From Candidatus Nealsonbacteria bacterium (lineage in GTDB: Bacteria; Patescibacteriota; Minisyncoccia; Minisyncoccales; MHMH01): DNA of 64,000 bases. The notes beneath the pieces are model-generated. The model was not told the origin of the DNA and ran no database searches. It saw only the letters and a list, made by a program, of their open reading frames with translations. The position numbers and the translations under genes are program-made. Numbering within the stretch: the stretch's first letter is position 1; each line of letters begins with the position of its first letter. Where the stretch lies: contig JACOYH010000003.1 of assembly GCA_016181965.1 (NCBI GenBank), forward strand, positions 1,013-65,012, read 5' to 3'. Shown here piece after piece: positions 570 through 58,683 of this stretch.

Positions 570-2100
570 AGTTCAATCGGCGGCGATAAGGGGATTAGAT
601 ACGATTGGCGTGGATGTGGAGGTTAATGTGGCGGCTAAGGGACTGCCGGGGTTTGACATTGTGGGGTTAGCCGACAAGGCGGTGGATGAAAGCCGCGAGC
701 GCGTTAAGACGGCTATCTTAAGTTCGAGAATAGAATTTCCACAAAAGAAAATTACTATCAATTTGGCGCCGGCTGATATTCCCAAAGAGGGTTCGGTGTA
801 TGACTTGCCGATTGCCGTCGGGCTTTTATCAATTTTAACCGGCTGTCAGGCGCCGCCAAAATCACTTTTTTTTGGCGAGTTGTCTTTAGACGGTTCCTTA
901 CGGCACACCAAGGGCGCGCTTTTGATGGCGCTGTTTGCCAAAGAAGCCGGTTTTGAAAATGTTTTTGCGCCTAAGGCCTCGGCTAACGAAGCGGCCGTTA
1001 TTAGCGGCATTAAGGTTTTTCCGGTTGAAAATCTGCGCCAGCTTTTGAATCATTTTGCAGGAAAGCAGTTGATTGATGTGGCATTAACACCCGGTGTTTC
1101 TCCGTCAACACCGGGTGTTTACTCCGAGGGAGAATTTAATATGGCCGAGGTTTTAGGGCAAGAGCAGGCCAAGAGGGCAATGGAAATTGCCGCGGCCGGC
1201 GGACATAATATATTAATGGTAGGCAGTCCGGGAGCTGGCAAAACAATGCTGGCGAGAGCGCTGCCCGGCATATTGCCTTCGCTTAACGAAGGGGAATCGC
1301 TTGAGGTAACAAAGATTTTTTCTTCAGCTGGCCGTATTCCAGTCGGCGGCTCGTTAATAAGAGTCAGGCAATTTCGCTCGCCACATCACACGACCTCGCC
1401 CGTTGGATTAATCGGCGGGGGAACAAGACCGCAGCCGGGCGAAATCAGTTTGGCCCATCGCGGCGTTTTGTTTCTTGACGAGTTCAATGAATTTCCGAGA
1501 TCGGTGTTGGAAGTTCTGCGCCAGCCGCTGGAAGACGGCTTTGTGACAATTTCAAGAAGCAAAGAAAAAACAATGTATCCTGCGAGGTTTATGCTGGTGG
1601 CTTCGGCCAATCCTTGTCCCTGCGGTTACTTAAATCATCCCAAAAAGAATTGCATTTGCCTGCCCCGGCAAATTAAAAAGTATCAGAAAAGAGTTTCGGG
1701 GCCATTGTTGGATAGAATTGATTTGCATATTGATGTGCCGCCGGTTGAGGTCAATGAATTGTCCGGCAATCAAGCGGCCTCGGATTTTTTGGAGCCGTCC
1801 AGCGCAATTAGAGAAAGGGTGGTTTCGGCGCGAAAAAAGCAAGAGGAGAGATTTAAGGATGACGCACTCTATGTAAATGCCGAAATGAGAAACAGACATA
1901 TTAAAAAATATTGCCAACTATCAAAAGAAGCAGAGCAAATTTTACAGCAGGCAGGGATAAAGTTTCAGCTGTCGGCGCGGTCTTATTTGAAAATGATAAA
2001 AATTGCCCGGACGATTGCCGACTTGGCTGGCGCGCCTGAAATAGAAGTCAGCCACATGGCCGAAGCTCTGCAGTATAGGCCCAAAAATTATGAAGAATGA
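559..2100 (+). CDS. comM: Mg-chelatase-like AAA+ ATPase ComM/YifB
   Basis: 513-aa ORF with Walker A GSPGAGKT, Walker B LFLDEFNEF and a ChlI-type C-terminal domain. Overlaps the dprA stop by 11 nt. Confidence 0.9.
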   Translation: MLIKVQSAAIRGLDTIGVDVEVNVAAKGLPGFDIVGLADKAVDESRERVKTAILSSRIEFPQKKITINLAPADIPKEGSVYDLPIAVGLLSILTGCQAPPKSLFFGELSLDGSLRHTKGALLMALFAKEAGFENVFAPKASANEAAVISGIKVFPVENLRQLLNHFAGKQLIDVALTPGVSPSTPGVYSEGEFNMAEVLGQEQAKRAMEIAAAGGHNILMVGSPGAGKTMLARALPGILPSLNEGESLEVTKIFSSAGRIPVGGSLIRVRQFRSPHHTTSPVGLIGGGTRPQPGEISLAHRGVLFLDEFNEFPRSVLEVLRQPLEDGFVTISRSKEKTMYPARFMLVASANPCPCGYLNHPKKNCICLPRQIKKYQKRVSGPLLDRIDLHIDVPPVEVNELSGNQAASDFLEPSSAIRERVVSARKKQEERFKDDALYVNAEMRNRHIKKYCQLSKEAEQILQQAGIKFQLSARSYLKMIKIARTIADLAGAPEIEVSHMAEALQYRPKNYEE

Positions 2101-2120
2101 AGAAGAGGGATAAAAAATGA

Positions 2121-2145
2121 AAACAAAAACCCCGCTTTCGCGGAG
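2121..2145 (-). terminator. Rho-independent terminator oriented for the minus strand
   Basis: The minus strand reads CUCCGC-GAAA-GCGGGG followed by UUUUUGUUUU. The plus-strand reading has only a poor U tract. Confidence 0.5.
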
Positions 2146-2190
2146 TTTCTGCGGTCTTAACAGAGTGTTAAGAACCGGGCTTATCACCTG
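2121..2190 (-). ncRNA. Candidate ~70-nt small RNA, or second piece of the tRNA-like element
   Basis: Lies downstream of the TTGACA-16-TATACT box. Contains UGAUAAGCCCGGU, a perfect complement of 2290-2278, then a 7-bp hairpin (2173-2155) and the terminator. Confidence 0.3.
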
Positions 2191-2195
2191 CCATC

Positions 2196-2223
2196 AGTAT
2201 AGCATTTCGTAATTGTCTGTCAA
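2196..2223 (-). promoter_or_regulatory. Sigma70-like promoter on the minus strand (TTGACA-16 nt-TATACT)
   Basis: Minus strand has TTGACA at 2223-2218 and TATACT at 2201-2196. It sits 16 nt after the CCA end of the tRNA-like domain. Confidence 0.45.
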
Positions 2224-2238
2224 GAGATACAAATTAGG

Positions 2239-2309
2239 TGGTGGAGGTGCCGGGAATTGCACCCGGAAGACCATGGATGATAAGCCCGGTCTCACACTTT
2301 GTCACCCCC
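2239..2309 (-). ncRNA. Alanine-type tRNA-like domain (tmRNA-style acceptor stem and T-arm) without recognisable D or anticodon arms
   Basis: Acceptor stem GGGGGUG/CACCUCC is 7 bp with a G3:U70 wobble. A73 and CCA are encoded. T-arm is CCGGG-UGCAAUU-CCCGG. The 36 nt between do not fold into a cloverleaf. A TATAAT box lies 11 nt upstream (2326-2321). Confidence 0.6.
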
Positions 2310-2337
2310 GCCACGATTAAATTATATCACATAAACT

Positions 2338-2676
2338 ATGAAGCAATTTAATCTTACTACTGGCAGATTGGGAGAGAATATTGCTAAGGACTTTTTGGAG
2401 AAAAAGGGGTATAATATAGTTGAGCAGAATTATAAGACAAAATACGGAGAAATTGATATAATAGCCAAAAAGGGAAGAGAGCTGATTGTGGTGGAGGTGA
2501 GAACGAAAATAGGGGATTTGTACGGCACGCCGGAGGACTCGCTGACAAAACAAAAATTGCGTAAAATTTGGCTGAATGCAAGGGCCCGCGGCGCCGACAG
2601 AATTGACGCGGTGTGCGTAGTGCTGAAAATGGACAACAGCGTAGAGAGGATAAACCACTATGAGAACATTATTTGA
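2338..2676 (+). CDS. YraN-family (UPF0102) endonuclease-like protein
   Basis: 112 aa with the pattern GE..A..FL.KKGY.I...N.....GEIDIIA..G..L..VEV(R/K)T typical of YraN. Confidence 0.8.
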   Translation: MKQFNLTTGRLGENIAKDFLEKKGYNIVEQNYKTKYGEIDIIAKKGRELIVVEVRTKIGDLYGTPEDSLTKQKLRKIWLNARARGADRIDAVCVVLKMDNSVERINHYENII

Positions 2677-2728: not shown

Positions 2729-4972
2729 ATGTCCAAAATTCTCAATCAGGTAGTTAGGTGCAGTATTTGCGCGATTGTATTCTTAATGCCCCTTTTCTTT
2801 TTGCCCTTCAGTTTTGAGGCATTTGAATTCAACAAGCAATATCTTTTATTCTTTTTGACCACGGCGGCGCTTTTCGCCTGGCTGGCCAAAATGGTGATTT
2901 ATGACAAAGAAATCCGGTTTAAGCAGACATCTTTGGATATTTATATTTTGGCTTTCTTGGCCGCGGCTGTCGCCTCCGTCGTATTTTCCATCGATAAGAC
3001 CACGAGCTTATTCGGCCTTTACGGGAGGTTCAGCAATGGGTTGGTTGGATTGGCGTCTCTCGTAATTTTGTACTTCTTGACTACCAACAATATCGGGGAA
3101 AATTTGAAAGTCGCGAAACTGCTGAATATTTTCCTTTGGGCTAGCGGCATAGTCGTTTTTATGGCTTATTTTTCAATTTTCGGCATTTGGGCAAAAATGG
3201 CGACTTGGCTTGCTTTGCCTCCCATCATGCAGCAAGTTAACTTCAATCCCGCGGCAGGTTCTTTGGAGGGGCTGGCTGTCTTTCTAGCTGTTGTTATAGG
3301 TTTGCTGATTGGGCTGATGACGAGCTCGATAGACCAGTCCAGAAAAACCGGTTTTTGCTGGTGGCTGCTGCTTTTGGCGTCTTTGGGCATAATGCTGATT
3401 GTGGATTTTGGCGCGGCTTGGATAGTGCTTTTATCAACACTGGTTTTGTATGTCGGCTTTAGTTTGTGGAAAAGAATATTTAAGGAAAGCGTTAACAAAC
3501 TGCTGATACCAATTTTCTTGATTATTGTTGCCATTGCCGCCATGCCCTCCGACCCTGCCGCAACAATTTTTGGCAGTGATTCCGACCTGGCAAATCTGCC
3601 GCAAGAGCAGGTTTTGTCGCAGCAAAATTCATGGACCGTAGCTATCAATTCCGCTACCGACAACGTTAAGAGTATTTTTGTCGGCTCCGGGCTGGCAACA
3701 TTTCAACACGACTTCGCCAAGCACAAATCGTCCGGTATGAACAATTCCTGGTTGTGGCAGATAAGGTTTGACAGGGCGGGCAATCATTTTGCCGAAACGC
3801 TTGCCACCGCGGGGTTCGTCGGGTTTCTCCTATACCTTACCGTAATCGGTCTTTTCCTGATGATGGGATATTTGCTGATGCTCGGCATCAAAAATATTTC
3901 ACAGGCGTATCCATTCCAAATACCATTGATGCTGGCATTTCTTGCCTTAATAGTAAGCCAGTTTGTTTATTACCAAAACGGCGTTTTGGCTTTTGCCTTC
4001 TGGCTCGTACTGGGCTTGAGCATGGTAAGCTGGCGAAAGCCCATTAAAGAAAAAGTAATTTCCTTCAAGGATTTTCCGGAGTTGTCGCTTATACTTTCCA
4101 CGATCATGATTGTTTTGGGGGTTGCCGCGCTCGTTCTGTATTTTTTCGCGGTGAAATTTTATCTGGCCGACGCCAATTACAGAAACGCCTTGAGTTTATT
4201 GGGCCAAGAACGCACTGCTTTGGTGGAAAAAGCAGCGACATTAAATCCATATTTTTCGCGCTACCGGGTGGAACTCTCAAGAACCTATTTATATGAGGCG
4301 CTTTTAGAATTTCAAAAGCCGGAAGCAAGCCGAAATGTCGCCCTTATTCAGACGAAGATTTCGGCCGCTATTGACCAAGCCAGGCGAGCGACCGATTTAC
4401 AGGCCAGCGTTATTACTTGGGAGAACTTAGGCGTTGTTTATCGCGAGGTATCGGGCATAGCCAACGGAGCGCTTGATTGGGGAATCAAATCGTTCGAAAC
4501 AGCTCTGCAATATGAGCCGGCTAACCCGGTGCTTTACACCGAGTTGGGAAGATTGTATCTTACGAAAGGAGACACCGAAGGCGCTAAGAACCAATTTAAC
4601 AAAGCAATCGAAGTAAAAGCGGATTACGCGGAAGCGCACATTCAGCTGGCCCTGCTTTTGGAAAAGGAAAACGGCCTCGCTGAAGCCATTGCTAATCTTG
4701 AAAAATTGGCCGAACTCAATCCTCTCAACGCCGATGGGCGCTTTCAGCTGGGCCGGCTTTACTTCAACGACAAGCAAACCCAAAAAGCTATTGAGCAGTT
4801 TCAGCTGGTAACTTTGCTGGTGCCCGATTATTCCAACGCTTATTACGCCTTGGGCATAGCATACGCTTCGCAGGGCAATAATGAGCAGGCAATTCAGGCG
4901 TTCGAGATGGTCTTAAAGCTTAACCCCGGCAATCAGGACGTAATTCAAAAATTGAATGAATTACGGCAATAG
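2729..4972 (+). CDS. Polytopic membrane protein (O-antigen ligase/Wzy-like) fused to C-terminal TPR repeats
   Basis: 747 aa. About 12 hydrophobic helices, then several clear TPR units (for example AYYALGIAYASQGNNEQAIQAFEMVLKLNPGN). Confidence 0.6.
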   Translation: MSKILNQVVRCSICAIVFLMPLFFLPFSFEAFEFNKQYLLFFLTTAALFAWLAKMVIYDKEIRFKQTSLDIYILAFLAAAVASVVFSIDKTTSLFGLYGRFSNGLVGLASLVILYFLTTNNIGENLKVAKLLNIFLWASGIVVFMAYFSIFGIWAKMATWLALPPIMQQVNFNPAAGSLEGLAVFLAVVIGLLIGLMTSSIDQSRKTGFCWWLLLLASLGIMLIVDFGAAWIVLLSTLVLYVGFSLWKRIFKESVNKLLIPIFLIIVAIAAMPSDPAATIFGSDSDLANLPQEQVLSQQNSWTVAINSATDNVKSIFVGSGLATFQHDFAKHKSSGMNNSWLWQIRFDRAGNHFAETLATAGFVGFLLYLTVIGLFLMMGYLLMLGIKNISQAYPFQIPLMLAFLALIVSQFVYYQNGVLAFAFWLVLGLSMVSWRKPIKEKVISFKDFPELSLILSTIMIVLGVAALVLYFFAVKFYLADANYRNALSLLGQERTALVEKAATLNPYFSRYRVELSRTYLYEALLEFQKPEASRNVALIQTKISAAIDQARRATDLQASVITWENLGVVYREVSGIANGALDWGIKSFETALQYEPANPVLYTELGRLYLTKGDTEGAKNQFNKAIEVKADYAEAHIQLALLLEKENGLAEAIANLEKLAELNPLNADGRFQLGRLYFNDKQTQKAIEQFQLVTLLVPDYSNAYYALGIAYASQGNNEQAIQAFEMVLKLNPGNQDVIQKLNELRQ

Positions 4973-21189: not shown

Positions 21190-21274
21190 TGGTGCCCAGG
21201 GCGAGATTCGAACTCGCAAGCTGTTAGGCACTAGCTCCTGGGGCTAGCGTGTTTACCGGTTTCACCACCTGGGC
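21190..21274 (-). tRNA. tRNA-Leu (anticodon CAG), class II with a long variable arm, CCA encoded
   Basis: Acceptor GCCCAGG/CCUGGGC, T-arm GCGAG-UUCGAAU-CUCGC, anticodon loop CCCAGGA. Position 33 is C rather than the usual U. Confidence 0.9.
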
Positions 21275-33549: not shown

Positions 33550-33639
33550 GGAGAGGTCGCATAGCGGTCTAGTGCGCCGCCTTGGAAAGGCGGTATGCCT
33601 TCACGGGCATCGAGGGTTCGAATCCCTCCCTCTCCGCCA
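33550..33639 (+). tRNA. tRNA-Ser (anticodon GGA), class II, CCA encoded
   Basis: Acceptor GGAGAGG/CCUCUCC, anticodon loop UUGGAAA, long variable arm, T-arm GAGGG-UUCGAAU-CCCUC. Confidence 0.93.
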
Positions 33640-36885: not shown

Positions 36886-36960
36886 TCCCCTGTAGCTCAA
36901 TGGTAGAGCATCTCGCTGTTAACGAGAGGGTTGTAGGTTCGAATCCTACCGGGGGAGCCA
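36886..36960 (+). tRNA. tRNA-Asn (anticodon GUU), CCA encoded
   Basis: Acceptor UCCCCUG/CGGGGGA, anticodon loop CUGUUAA, T-arm GUAGG-UUCGAAU-CCUAC. Confidence 0.93.
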
Positions 36961-58605: not shown

Positions 58606-58612
58606 TTTTTTG

Positions 58613-58683
58613 TCGGGGCGCTGGGAATTGAACCCAGTTCACAGGACCCCCAGCCCTGCATAATACCAATATACGACGCCCCG
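58613..58683 (-). tRNA. tRNA-Pro (anticodon GGG), CCA not encoded
   Basis: Acceptor CGGGGCG/CGCCCCG, anticodon loop CUGGGGG, T-arm CUGGG-UUCAAUU-CCCAG. The D-stem is weak and AT-rich. Confidence 0.85.

What the first reader, a model, noticed from the sequence alone, without database searches (positions are those of the whole stretch)
2121..2337. Alanine-type tRNA-like domain with tmRNA-style features but no tmRNA body, wired to a downstream 13-nt perfect complement, an internal consensus promoter and a terminator
Seen in sequence. On the minus strand, 2309 to 2239 reads GGGGGUG-AC-AAAGUGUGAG-ACCGGGCUUAUCA-UCCAUGGUCUU-CCGGG-UGCAAUU-CCCGG-CACCUCC-ACCA. This gives a 7-bp acceptor stem with a G3:U70 wobble, A73 and an encoded CCA, plus a canonical 5-bp/7-nt T-arm. 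I could not fold the 36 intervening nucleotides into a D arm or into a 5-bp/7-nt anticodon arm. Established knowledge: G3:U70 with A73 is the alanine identity set used by tRNA-Ala and by the tRNA-like domain of tmRNA. As I recall it, the stem GGGGGUG/CACCUCC matches the acceptor stem of Thermus tmRNA. The segment ACCGGGCUUAUCA (2290-2278) sits where tmRNA helix P2a would start. Its perfect 13-nt partner UGAUAAGCCCGGU (2186-2174) lies 52 nt AFTER the CCA, not before the T-arm. Between them is TTGACA-16-TATACT (2223-2196). After the partner come a 7-bp hairpin (2173-2155) and a GC stem with a U-run (2145-2121). The whole comM-yraN gap is 237 nt, too short for a normal tmRNA. The element order is not a circular permutation of the standard order, so it also differs from known two-piece tmRNAs. 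Inference, three possibilities: (i) a strand-swapped two-piece tmRNA-like RNA in which a 71-nt chargeable piece pairs in trans with a second RNA; (ii) a tRNA-like RNA plus a cognate antisense sRNA; (iii) a decayed ssrA remnant. A possible frame ACA GAC AAU UAC GAA AUG CUA UAC UGA (TDNYEMLY) faintly recalls the DNY core of ANDENYALAA. It lacks the usual C-terminal Ala-Ala, so I give it little weight.
Basis: partly seen in the sequence, partly recalled or inferred. Interest (0 to 1): 0.7.

Follow-up and report, generated by a model that had tools for sequence, protein, structure and literature searches.

The report
Mini tmRNA-like RNA plus antisense partner
This spacer holds a conserved pair of small RNA genes from 'candidate phyla' (Parcubacteria) bacteria: one RNA looks like the alanine-accepting, tRNA-like head of the ribosome-rescue RNA tmRNA without its message part, and the other is a co-evolving antisense RNA predicted to unfold it, a pairing I could not find described anywhere.

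Summary
On the minus strand, 2309-2239 encodes a 71-nt RNA (RNA1). It has a 7-bp acceptor stem (G3:U70, A73), a 9-nt single strand, a 6+3-bp arm with a 7-nt loop that abuts the T arm, and a 5-bp/7-nt T arm. This is the layout of the tRNA-like domain (TLD) of tmRNA, with no mRNA part. A second gene (RNA2, about 2190-2115) has a near-consensus promoter and an intrinsic terminator. Its 5' end is complementary to RNA1 nt 8-41, not only to the 13-mer.

I found 16 such pairs in Parcubacteria MAGs and metagenomes. The paired sequences differ between loci but stay complementary. Cognate duplexes average -43 kcal/mol against -22.5 for non-cognate ones, and 0 of 100,000 permutations did as well. RNA2 lies downstream on the same strand or upstream on the opposite strand, so pairing is in trans. 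G1-G3, U70-C72 and A73 never vary, while neighbouring stem pairs covary.

The module is an insertion. Most relatives have overlapping comM and yraN genes, and other copies sit in rplJ|rplL or rpsG|fusA.

It is not a tRNA, a standard tmRNA, a permuted tmRNA or a decayed ssrA. Best reading: a TLD-only tmRNA mimic held in check by a dedicated antisense RNA. Its function, possibly inhibition of trans-translation, is inferred.

The parts
2321..2329 (-). RNA1 promoter: extended -10 box TGaTATAAT. It lies 11 nt upstream of G1 and directly abuts the yraN start codon on the other strand.
   Evidence: Read from the sequence. The same TGnTATAAT sits at the same distance in nearly all homologues. The -35 is poor, so the consensus scan did not list it.
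2310..2314 (-). Short 5' leader (GUGGC). Nucleotides -2 to -4 pair with trailer positions 74-76, which are the 'CCA'.
   Evidence: Leader-trailer pairs -2:74, -3:75 and -4:76 are paired in 16-18 of 18 homologues, with 4, 10 and 8 double changes. U(-1) occurs in 16 of 18; the window has C.
2239..2309 (-). RNA1, 71 nt, a tmRNA-TLD-like RNA. Acceptor stem 2309-2303 / 2249-2243 (G3:U70). Single strand 2302-2294. Arm 2293-2267 with loop CUUAUCA at 2284-2278. T arm 2266-2250. A73 at 2242. CCA at 2241-2239.
   Evidence: Covariance models R1 and R2 score it 101 and 84 bits. Acceptor stem is 100% paired, and G1:C72, G2:C71 and G3:U70 are invariant in 18 of 18 while pairs 4-7 covary. T arm is 99% paired. 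The arm has double changes at 5 of 6 pairs. RF00023 aligns end to end at 19.4 bits. No tRNA or tmRNA call.
2269..2302 (-). The part of RNA1 bound by RNA2: nt 8-41 in the window and nt 8-36 in all homologues. It covers the 9-nt single strand, the 5' strand of the arm, the loop and the start of the 3' strand.
   Evidence: RNAduplex gives 22-30 bp per pair. Most columns show 2-6 Watson-Crick pair types across the 16 pairs.
2196..2223 (-). RNA2 promoter: TTGACA, 16 nt, TG-extended TATACT.
   Evidence: 11 of 12 consensus matches plus TG. A -35 of TTGACA/TTGACT with a 16-18-nt spacer was located in 15 of 16 pairs; the exception is L221a. Pairing starts 3-7 nt after the -10 box in the other 14 pairs, and further upstream in the window.
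2113..2190 (-). RNA2, an antisense RNA of about 70-78 nt. 5' pairing segment about 2190-2150 (perfect 13-mer at 2186-2174). Internal hairpin 2173-2155. Terminator stem 2152-2123 followed by a U tract. The start is inferred from the promoter to within about 3 nt.
   Evidence: The cognate duplex is -39 to -40 kcal/mol in the window. The next best site in the flanks is -22.
2085..2095 (+). Left copy of the flanking direct repeat, AAATTATGAAG (end of comM).
   Evidence: family D2: 10 of 11 identical to 2333-2343. In uninserted relatives this sequence occurs once, as the comM-stop/yraN-start overlap.
2333..2343 (+). Right copy of the flanking direct repeat, AAACTATGAAG (start of yraN).
   Evidence: L006 shows the equivalent 16-nt repeat around its own insert.

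Best explanation
The comM-yraN spacer carries an inserted, self-contained module of two small RNA genes on the minus strand.

RNA1 (2309-2239) is a derivative of the tRNA-like domain of tmRNA with no mRNA-like part. It has an acceptor stem carrying the alanine identity set (G1-G2-G3:U70, A73). A 9-nt single strand stands in place of a D arm. A P2a-like arm is closed by a loop and abuts the T arm without a variable loop.

RNA1 is transcribed from an extended -10 promoter with a leader of about 5 nt and has no terminator. Its ends must therefore be made by tRNA-processing enzymes: RNase P at G1, RNase Z or exonucleases after A73, then CCA addition where CCA is not encoded. These steps are inferred.

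RNA2 (about 2190-2115) is made from a near-consensus promoter and ends at an intrinsic terminator. Its unstructured 5' end pairs first with the RNA1 loop, which has a U-turn-like CUUR motif. Pairing then spreads over RNA1 nt 8-36.

The duplex consumes RNA1's arm and the strand next to the acceptor stem, so it is predicted to abolish the tRNA-like fold. RNA2 would then be a dedicated antagonist of RNA1. The pairing itself is shown by covariation. The unfolding is inferred from thermodynamics and geometry.

The most likely activity of free RNA1 is interference with, or an untagged form of, trans-translation. TLD-only tmRNA constructs strongly inhibit tmRNA in E. coli, perhaps by titrating SmpB, and a phage (DS6A) encodes such an RNA. 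The pair would then behave like an all-RNA toxin-antitoxin or regulated growth-arrest module. That fits its patchy, insertion-like and sometimes multi-copy distribution. This last step is hypothesis.
For: Shown.
1. Architecture and sequence in the window.
2. 18 RNA1 homologues in Parcubacteria MAGs and metagenomes. The structure covaries: covariation score 0.53 against 0.21 shuffled and at most 0.17 when the partners are slid; 0 of 500 shuffles reach it.
3. G1:C72, G2:C71, G3:U70 and A73 are invariant while pairs 4-7 change on both sides in 5-9 sequences. The 3' side was not part of any search pattern.
4. 16 RNA1/RNA2 pairs were found. The cognate duplex averages -43 kcal/mol against -22.5 +/- 7 for non-cognate combinations. 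The cognate RNA2 is the best partner in 13 of 16, and the exceptions are close relatives. 0 of 100,000 permutations match the observed mean. The pairing always covers RNA1 nt 8-36, although nt 17-36 are only 49% identical between loci on average.
5. RNA2 is downstream on the same strand in 14 pairs and upstream on the opposite strand in L043 and L056. It always has its own TTGAC-type promoter and, in most pairs, a recognisable terminator.
6. Two pairs with different specificities lie on one contig, L238. Cross-pair duplexes are -22 and -28 against -46 and -49 for the cognate ones.
7. Cofold predicts a dimer favoured by 16-26 kcal/mol with the acceptor stem lost.
8. Similarity to tmRNA. RF00023 aligns end to end with the body deleted. 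The T loop UGCAAWU is the one seen in many permuted tmRNAs. The arm abuts the T arm, and position 8 is a purine (A in 14 of 18, G in 3) rather than the tRNA-typical U8.
9. Insertion. In many of the 80 relatives, including the closest ones, comM and yraN overlap by 1-7 nt. Imperfect flanking direct repeats surround the insert. Other copies lie between rplJ and rplL, between rpsG and fusA, or next to AbiEii, an rve transposase or DUF3800 genes.

From the literature.
- TLD-only tmRNA is encoded by phage DS6A. A similar molecule strongly inhibits tmRNA, perhaps by titrating SmpB (PMC4131195).
- CDS-less tmRNAs are listed for mitochondria, plastids, DS6A and one bacterial group; 3 'Standard NoCDS' instances fall in Patescibacteria (PMC11915505).
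- Patescibacteria normally carry a standard tmRNA: 5252 in 6765 genomes.
Against: - There is no expression, processing, charging or SmpB-binding evidence. All of that is inference.
- RNA1 scores far below the tmRNA gathering score (19.4 against 47 bits).
- In the window it lacks the canonical D-loop analogue GGnUUCGAC that contacts SmpB. Relatives have only a partial match, UAGUGUGGAC.
- The conserved leader-trailer helix could mean that the ends are never freed.
- One RNA1 copy, L221b, has no RNA2 within 450 nt. That is awkward for an obligatory toxin-antidote reading, unless the copy is decaying.
- I could not check whether this genome has ssrA or smpB. Neither is in the 64-kb window.
- 12 of the 18 homologues were retrieved with a pattern that required GGG at nt 1-3, AGUNUG and the T-arm core. 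Invariance of those positions is partly by construction.
Confidence: 0.5

Rival explanations
1. The RNA1:RNA2 heterodimer is itself the working molecule. It would be a novel two-piece, tag-less ribosome-rescue RNA in which RNA2 supplies a long P2-like helix.
For: Pairing in trans is conserved. Two-piece tmRNAs held together by base pairing exist (PMC11915505). The T loop resembles that of permuted tmRNAs. CDS-less tmRNAs are conserved in mitochondria alongside SmpB.
Against: The duplex uses nt 8-36 and so destroys RNA1's own covarying arm. That arm would not be conserved if only the dimer mattered. Only 7 nt link the far end of a duplex of about 27 bp back to the T arm, which is sterically incompatible with an intact acceptor/T stack (inference). 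Cofold loses the acceptor stem. RNA2 carries no conserved ORF or other conserved sequence.
Confidence: 0.1
2. RNA2 is the effector sRNA and RNA1 is its tRNA-like sponge or decoy, or a mimic of RNA2's real target.
For: tRNA-derived sponges for sRNAs are known in E. coli (from my own knowledge, not checked here). RNA2 has the stronger promoter.
Against: The RNA2 seed sequence changes freely together with RNA1 (49% mean identity in the paired part). No third conserved target is therefore implied. There is no other match to the 13-mer in 64 kb. The sequence-invariant features lie in RNA1 (G3:U70, A73, T arm), not in RNA2.
Confidence: 0.1
3. The module is mainly a small mobile (MITE-like) palindromic element. 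The RNAs are by-products, and the inverted repeat serves transposition or recombination.
For: Presence/absence polymorphism at comM|yraN. Flanking imperfect direct repeats of 11-16 nt. Insertion into several conserved operons. Stop-free antisense frames through 6 of 14 modules, and a 911-aa ORF that reads through two modules in L238.
Against: There are no terminal inverted repeats. The repeat is internal, and in L043 and L056 the two halves are arranged differently. Only one copy is in the 64-kb window. Copies on one contig are divergent, not near-identical. Two promoters, a terminator, a covarying three-helix fold and an invariant G3:U70 are not explained by mobility alone. Mobility and RNA function are compatible.
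Confidence: 0.1
4. RNA1 is a non-ribosomal alanine donor, an Ala-tRNA-like substrate for cell-wall or aminoacyl-transferase chemistry, switched off by RNA2.
For: The alanine identity set is invariant. There is no anticodon: the loop varies and covaries with RNA2. tRNA-dependent peptidoglycan bridge synthesis exists in other bacteria (from my own knowledge).
Against: No aminoacyl-transferase gene or any other protein gene recurs next to the module. The similarity is to tmRNA rather than to tRNA-Ala.
Confidence: 0.06
5. A decayed ssrA remnant with a chance inverted repeat.
For: There is no mRNA-like domain, and tmRNA model scores are sub-threshold.
Against: 18 homologues have compensatory changes in three helices, and 16 have co-evolving partners. 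Promoters and terminators are conserved.
Confidence: 0.01

Closest known systems
TLD-only ('CDS-less') tmRNAs: mycobacteriophage DS6A tmRNA, jakobid and oomycete mitochondrial tmRNA (Rfam RF02544), plastid forms of about 65 nt, and the 'Standard NoCDS' entries in the tmRNA database (including 3 Patescibacteria instances)
   Same: An RNA of about 70 nt made only of an acceptor stem with G3:U70/A73, a single-stranded D-analogue, a short P2a-like arm and a T arm. It has no tag reading frame and no pseudoknots. RF00023 aligns it end to end with the body deleted.
   Different: RNA1 is below every Rfam threshold and does not hit RF02544. In the window it lacks the GGnUUCGAC motif. It has a covarying leader-trailer helix. 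Above all, it comes with a dedicated, co-evolving antisense RNA gene. I found no mention of such a partner for any tmRNA form in the papers I read. None of the TLD-only RNAs that I saw in viral contigs has one.
Two-piece (circularly permuted) tmRNA of Alphaproteobacteria, some Betaproteobacteria and Cyanobacteria (RF04321, RF01849-51)
   Same: Two RNAs held together by base pairing. The T loop is UGCAAWU and the 3' end is CCUCCACCA. Sub-threshold hits score 21-25 bits.
   Different: In permuted tmRNA the 5' acceptor strand sits on the coding piece, and both pieces come from one precursor. Here RNA1 holds both acceptor strands, RNA2 has its own promoter and can lie on the other strand, and there is no tag ORF. 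Pairing destroys the tRNA-like fold instead of building it.
Trans-encoded antisense RNA pairs of toxin-antitoxin loci (type I such as tisB/istR-1; RNA-RNA 'type VIII' such as SdsR/RyeA and CreT/CreA)
   Same: Adjacent, independently transcribed genes, tandem or divergent. Extended complementarity. A stronger promoter on the presumed antidote. Patchy, multi-copy distribution with pair-specific recognition.
   Different: There is no toxin peptide. The presumed toxin would be a tmRNA mimic. Toxicity is untested. The 26-bit istR hit rests on generic promoter and terminator features.
tRNA-Ala
   Same: G1-G2-G3:U70 and A73. Some homologues have exactly the stem GGGGCUA/UAGCUCC, which I recall as the E. 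coli tRNA-Ala stem. T arm present.
   Different: No D arm, no variable loop and no anticodon. The loop varies and covaries with RNA2. T-loop position 55 is G. Position 8 is a purine, not U8. Neither ARAGORN nor RF00005 recognises it.

Membership tests
tmRNA, standard one-piece (RF00023) | 7-bp acceptor stem with G3:U70 and discriminator A73, plus a 5-bp/7-nt T arm | tested here: met
   invariant in 18 of 18 homologues. T arm 99% paired.
tmRNA, standard one-piece (RF00023) | mRNA-like domain with resume codon, tag ORF and stop codon, flanked by pseudoknots | tested here: not met
   Only 33 nt lie between the 5' and 3' TLD parts. No conserved ORF in RNA1, the spacer or RNA2. ARAGORN finds no tag.
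tmRNA, standard one-piece (RF00023) | D-loop analogue GGnUUCGAC after the acceptor stem | tested here: not met
   The window has AC-AAAGUGUGAG. Relatives have UAGUGUGGAC, a partial resemblance only. The viral TLD-only RNAs do have it.
tmRNA, standard one-piece (RF00023) | Score at or above the Rfam gathering threshold (47 bits) | tested here: not met
   19.4 bits in the window. 29.6 bits for L232.
tmRNA, any form | Alanylation by AlaRS, SmpB binding and entry into stalled ribosomes | not testable with these tools
   Needs biochemistry. smpB and ssrA were not found in the 64-kb window. The rest of the genome is not available.
Two-piece (permuted) tmRNA (RF04321, RF01849) | Gene order of acceptor piece, intervening sequence, then coding piece, with the 5' end of the coding piece supplying the 5' acceptor strand | tested here: not met
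   The sub-threshold alignment uses GG-C-AGGUG at 2192-2185, which is bulged and gives A3:U70. No such strand precedes RNA2 in any homologue.
TLD-only / CDS-less tmRNA (DS6A type; mitochondrial RF02544) | A tRNA-like domain alone, under about 100 nt, with no reading frame | tested here: met
TLD-only / CDS-less tmRNA (DS6A type; mitochondrial RF02544) | Recognised by a tmRNA covariance model at its threshold | tested here: inconclusive
   RF02544 gives no hit at E<=10. RF00023 gives E 1e-6 in an 85-nt search but stays below its gathering score. Viral TLD-only RNAs reach 45.7-53.5 bits.
tRNA (RF00005), tRNA-Ala | Cloverleaf with a D arm, a 5-bp anticodon stem, a 7-nt loop with a conserved anticodon, and a variable loop | tested here: not met
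   No ARAGORN or RF00005 hit. 9 nt of single strand replace the D arm. The arm abuts the T arm. The loop sequence varies.
Antisense-RNA-controlled two-gene module (toxin-antitoxin-like) | Two adjacent genes with their own promoters and extended complementarity kept by co-evolution | tested here: met
   Promoters are judged by consensus only.
Antisense-RNA-controlled two-gene module (toxin-antitoxin-like) | One partner is harmful when the other is absent | not testable with these tools
   The only precedent is that TLD-only constructs inhibit tmRNA in E. coli (PMC4131195). The orphan RNA1 copy L221b argues for caution.
MITE / small non-autonomous transposon | Terminal inverted repeats and target-site duplication | tested here: inconclusive
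   No terminal inverted repeats. Imperfect 11-16-nt direct repeats flank the inserts in the window and L006, but they coincide with the duplicated comM/yraN overlap.

The most novel reading that the evidence does not exclude
An all-RNA toxin-antitoxin or abortive-infection module that moves among candidate-phyla genomes. The 'toxin' would be a tmRNA mimic that shuts down ribosome rescue by soaking up SmpB, AlaRS or stalled ribosomes. The antitoxin would be a co-evolving antisense RNA that unfolds it. Orthogonal pairs would coexist in one genome.
Probability: 0.2. Interest if true: 0.85.

Novelty: new variant of a known kind. Interest (0 to 1): 0.72.

Why it matters
TLD-only tmRNAs have been curiosities seen in one phage, some organelles and a few database entries, with no known biology in bacteria. 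Here a bacterial lineage keeps such an RNA under clear selection and pairs it with a private antisense RNA.

If RNA1 acts on trans-translation, this would be the first natural, switchable RNA inhibitor or modulator of ribosome rescue, and a new type of RNA-only two-component module. It would sit in organisms (Patescibacteria) whose regulation is almost unknown.

It also offers sets of orthogonal RNA-RNA recognition pairs. In addition, it warns that ARAGORN and Rfam miss this class of gene entirely.

Tried and rejected
1. Ordinary tRNA or tmRNA. ARAGORN and Rfam at gathering thresholds find nothing at the site, and ARAGORN finds nothing at the homologues scanned.
2. Permuted tmRNA with a downstream 5' acceptor strand. 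It was suggested by 19-21-bit hits and rejected because that strand is absent from all homologues.
3. Tag peptide. Neither is conserved, and RNA2 of L006 has no downstream stop.
4. An anticodon in the arm loop. The loops differ between loci (CUUAUCA, AUUGCCA, GUUACCG and others) and covary with RNA2.
5. A conserved protein partner. All-against-all comparison of flanking ORFs finds none. The shared clusters are the comM operon itself or ORFs that overlap the RNA genes. A small ORF beside the L246 module is unique and has no Pfam match.
6. Synteny as the explanation. The module is absent from most comM-yraN junctions and occurs in unrelated contexts.
7. Terminal inverted repeats. None were found.
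8. A second copy in the window. There is none; R2 otherwise hits only tRNA-Pro, weakly.
9. L143, a GC-rich viral contig with an RNA1-like hit. It has no convincing partner, and I left it out of the pair analysis.
10. The broad T-arm pattern in viral contigs returned mostly permuted tmRNAs. I therefore used a tighter pattern for the single metagenome scan. 20 of its 39 loci gave no RNA1 hit; I did not inspect them and they are probably background.
11. Literature searches for tRNA-like small RNAs in Patescibacteria found nothing.
Full report
**1. What is in the window**

The minus strand of 2340-2110 reads as follows. The yraN start codon (complement) comes first, then an extended -10 box TGaTATAAT (2329-2321) and an 11-nt stretch. 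RNA1 follows:

GGGGGUG-AC-AAAGUGU-GAGACC-GGG-CUUAUCA-UCC-AU-GGUCUU-CCGGG-UGCAAUU-CCCGG-CACCUCC-A-CCA (2309-2239).

After it come a 15-nt spacer, TTGACA-16-(TG)TATACT (2223-2196), and about 6 nt. Then comes a stretch complementary to RNA1 (about 2190-2150, perfect for 13 nt at 2186-2174), a 7-8-bp hairpin (2173-2155), and a 13-bp terminator stem with a U tract (2152-2113).

- The promoter and terminator were picked up by the consensus scan.
- The 13-mer occurs nowhere else in the 64 kb.
- The 198-nt region folds with z = -6.7 because of a long helix between the 5' half of RNA1 and the downstream segment.
- The flanking genes are ComM (559-2100), YraN/UPF0102 (2338-2676) and DprA (6-569).
- ARAGORN and Rfam at curated thresholds call nothing here.

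**2. Relatives**

A ComM search of GTDB species genomes returned 80 loci. Nearly all are Parcubacteria (Nealsonbacteria, Staskawiczbacteria and similar), with some Omnitrophota.

A covariance model built from the window and one BLAST-detectable homologue found RNA1 in L043, L041, L006, L056 and L005.

A T-arm pattern run on viral contigs showed that the T loop UGCAAWU belongs mostly to permuted tmRNAs. I therefore used a more specific pattern for the single metagenome scan. It gave 39 loci, 15 of which hold a strong RNA1 match.

After removing duplicates there are 18 RNA1 sequences and 16 RNA1/RNA2 pairs.

**3. RNA1 is a conserved structured RNA with alanine identity and a tmRNA-TLD layout**

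On a MAFFT alignment that was not fitted to any structure:

| Feature | Result |
|---|---|
| Acceptor stem | Paired in 100% of cells |
| G1:C72, G2:C71, G3:U70 | Invariant in 18 of 18 |
| Acceptor pairs 4-7 | Change on both sides in 5, 6, 6 and 9 sequences |
| T arm | 99% paired |
| Arm | Double changes at 5 of 6 pairs |
| Covariation score | 0.53, against 0.21 shuffled and at most 0.17 slid |

RNAalifold recovers the same three helices unaided. A73 is invariant.

The 3'-strand nucleotides were not part of any retrieval pattern. The 5' GGG, AGUNUG and the T-arm core were required for the 12 metagenome sequences. They are also present in all of the homologues found with the covariance model alone, except L056, which has GGUGGC and a UUCGAUU T loop.

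The junctions are those of a tmRNA tRNA-like domain, not of a tRNA:
- position 8 is a purine (A in 14 of 18, G in 3), not the tRNA-typical U8;
- 9 single-stranded nucleotides replace a D arm;
- the arm abuts the T arm with no variable loop;
- the loop has no conserved anticodon.

Rfam's tmRNA model aligns the window RNA end to end (model positions 1-374) with the whole body replaced by 33 nt. The score is 19.4 bits, E 1e-6 for that small search, below the 47-bit threshold. The L232 homologue scores 29.6 bits.

A new finding concerns the 5' leader. It is only about 5 nt, judging from the promoter, and it pairs with the 3' trailer. The -1:73 pair is U-A in 16 of 18. Pairs -2:74, -3:75 and -4:76 covary. 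The window's 'CCA' is simply the trailer strand opposite the leader UGG. Only 2 of 18 homologues encode CCA. Three of the four ordinary tRNA genes in the window encode CCA and one does not.

RNA1 never has its own terminator. In L043 and L056 it is followed within 8-20 nt by the dprA start codon. Its 3' end must therefore be made by processing (inference).

**4. RNA2 is a dedicated, co-evolving antisense RNA that acts in trans**

In 15 of the 16 pairs I located a -35 TTGAC(A/T) with a 16-18-nt spacer before a -10 box. In the other 14 pairs the segment complementary to RNA1 starts 3-7 nt after the -10, and in most pairs a terminator follows.

RNAduplex scans of 450 nt on either side find the cognate partner at -34 to -54 kcal/mol. 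The next best site scores -21 to -36.

The duplex always covers RNA1 nt 8-36 with 22-30 bp. Most columns show two to six different Watson-Crick pair types across loci.

In an all-against-all matrix, cognate pairs average -43.0 kcal/mol and non-cognate pairs -22.5 +/- 7.0. The cognate RNA2 ranks first for 13 of 16 RNA1s, and the exceptions are near-identical relatives. None of 100,000 permutations reaches the observed mean.

RNA2 lies downstream on the same strand in 14 pairs. In L043 and L056 it lies upstream on the opposite strand. The two RNAs are thus separate transcripts there, and the pairing cannot be a mere hairpin in one transcript.

Contig L238 carries two pairs about 1 kb apart with different acceptor stems and mutually poor cross-pairing. 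L221 carries a pair plus an orphan RNA1.

**5. What pairing does (inference)**

The duplex uses the 5' strand and loop of RNA1's own covarying arm, plus the nucleotides directly after the acceptor stem. Both states are therefore under selection, and they exclude each other.

Only nt 37-43 remain to connect the far end of a duplex of about 27 bp (about 75 Å) to the T arm. Seven nucleotides span at most about 45 Å, so a full duplex is incompatible with an intact acceptor/T stack.

RNAcofold agrees. The dimer is favoured by 16-26 kcal/mol over the two monomers, and the acceptor stem is lost while the T arm stays.

The RNA1 loop mostly carries a U-turn-like (C)UUR motif. The RNA2 5' end is predicted to be unstructured. 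That is the usual arrangement for fast antisense recognition (from my own knowledge).

RNA2's promoter is near-consensus (11 of 12 matches plus TG). RNA1 has only an extended -10. RNA2 is therefore probably made in excess.

**6. The module is an insertion with a patchy distribution**

dprA-comM-yraN is a conserved operon in these bacteria. In many of the 80 loci, including the closest relatives, comM and yraN overlap by 1-7 nt; most of the others have small gaps.

The window, L006 and L005 carry the module of about 220-237 nt at that junction on the opposite strand. The closest relatives by ComM identity (L003 and L008, 81-82%) do not.

The insert is flanked by an imperfect direct repeat of the former overlap. 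In the window this is AAATTATGAAG and AAACTATGAAG. In L006 it is 16 nt. The window and L006 carry different RNA1 types (GGGGGUG against GGGCCCG stems). The shared site may therefore have been hit twice, or the cassette may have been replaced.

Elsewhere the module lies:
- between rplJ and rplL (L248);
- between rpsG and fusA (L246);
- between comFC and dprA (L043, L056);
- next to AbiEii, an rve transposase, a PD-(D/E)XK nuclease or DUF3800 genes.

No protein gene recurs next to it. No terminal inverted repeats are present.

**7. Comparison with what is known**

The tmRNA database paper lists three gene forms (standard, permuted, intron) plus rare CDS-less forms. These are found in mitochondria, two plastids of about 65 bp, phage DS6A, Nasuia and '9FT-COMBO-53-11 sp001772805'. 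Its phylum table gives Patescibacteria 5252 standard tmRNAs in 6765 genomes and 3 'Standard NoCDS' instances (PMC11915505).

So these bacteria normally own a standard ssrA, and a few TLD-only genes in the phylum have been noticed as database entries.

Hudson et al. note that the DS6A RNA is 'little more than the TLD'. They add that a similar molecule, chargeable or not, strongly inhibits tmRNA, perhaps by titrating SmpB (PMC4131195).

I found no description of an antisense partner for any tmRNA-like RNA, nor of tRNA-like small RNAs in Patescibacteria. The library does not cover subscription journals.

**8. Verdict**

- The element is real and conserved.
- It is not a tRNA, a standard tmRNA, a permuted tmRNA or a pseudogene.
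- It works like a TLD-only tmRNA mimic coupled to a private antisense antagonist. I hold the structural part with high confidence (about 0.9 for the pairing, about 0.7 for TLD ancestry and alanine identity).
- The functional part, interference with trans-translation with toxin-antitoxin-like behaviour, is a hypothesis (about 0.3). It rests on one published precedent and on the genomic behaviour of the module.
- Whether this genome also has ssrA and smpB could not be tested.

Noticed in passing
L099:6256-6349(+), L091:995-1064(+), L160:3219-3151(-); also L137:2196-2276, L116:1379-1456, L132:4806-4889 (IMG/VR viral contigs): RNAs of 69-94 nt that consist only of a canonical tmRNA tRNA-like domain: GGGGnnGAnuAGnUUCGAC, a short hairpin, then ..GGAC, T arm, G3:U70 and ACCA. 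RF00023 scores are 53.5, 47.5 and 45.7 bits for the first three, at or near the 47-bit threshold. ARAGORN calls none of them. No antisense partner was found nearby. They look like further phage TLD-only tmRNAs of the DS6A kind.
   Followed up: partly
L238:1765-4500(+), L227:2954-3874(+); modules in L006, L234 and L244: A 911-aa ORF (signal peptide, PT-rich linkers, C-terminal part homologous to a large L227 protein) reads on the opposite strand straight through two complete RNA1/RNA2 modules without a stop codon. 6 of 14 tandem modules have one stop-free antisense frame. The window's module does not. This recalls palindromic elements inserted in frame into genes. It is unexplained.
   Followed up: partly
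window 2085-2095 and 2333-2343; L006:4524-4539 and 4750-4765: The insert is bracketed by an imperfect duplication of the former comM-stop/yraN-start overlap, so both genes stay intact. It could be a target-site duplication or a selected repair of the junction.
   Followed up: partly
L008:698-624(-), with an upstream segment at about 757-747(-): The closest relative without the comM|yraN insert has a divergent RNA1-like gene: GGGCCCG...CGGGUCC-A with G3:U70 and T arm GCGAG/UGUAAGU/CUCGC, scoring 27 bits with R2. It lies about 0.5 kb upstream of dprA (about 1.5 kb from comM). A short complementary segment (GCUGGGUGUCA) plus a terminator lies upstream on the same strand. This may be a third arrangement.
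   Followed up: partly
L221:5060-5130(+): A second RNA1 copy whose upstream promoter region is almost identical to that of the first copy 1.36 kb away. It has no cognate RNA2 within 450 nt and lies next to an rve-family transposase gene.
   Followed up: partly
L246:1926-2420(+): Between fusA and the RNA module lies an unannotated gene of about 100 aa. It has no Pfam match and no homologue in the other loci. It is driven by a promoter whose 15-nt -10 region (TATGATATAATTAAT) is identical to that of the adjacent RNA1, and it is followed by its own terminator.
   Followed up: partly
80 comM loci (L003-L082): 7 of 80 loci of about 7.5 kb around dprA-comM-yraN carry a module, in four different positions. 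For genomes of about 1 Mb with one or two copies, I would expect about one. The module may be associated with this competence-gene operon for reasons I cannot explain.
   Followed up: no
window 58612-58683(-) compared with 21190-21274, 33550-33639 and 36886-36960: tRNA-Pro(GGG) lacks an encoded CCA, while tRNA-Leu, tRNA-Ser and tRNA-Asn encode it. The organism therefore needs a CCA-adding enzyme.
   Followed up: no
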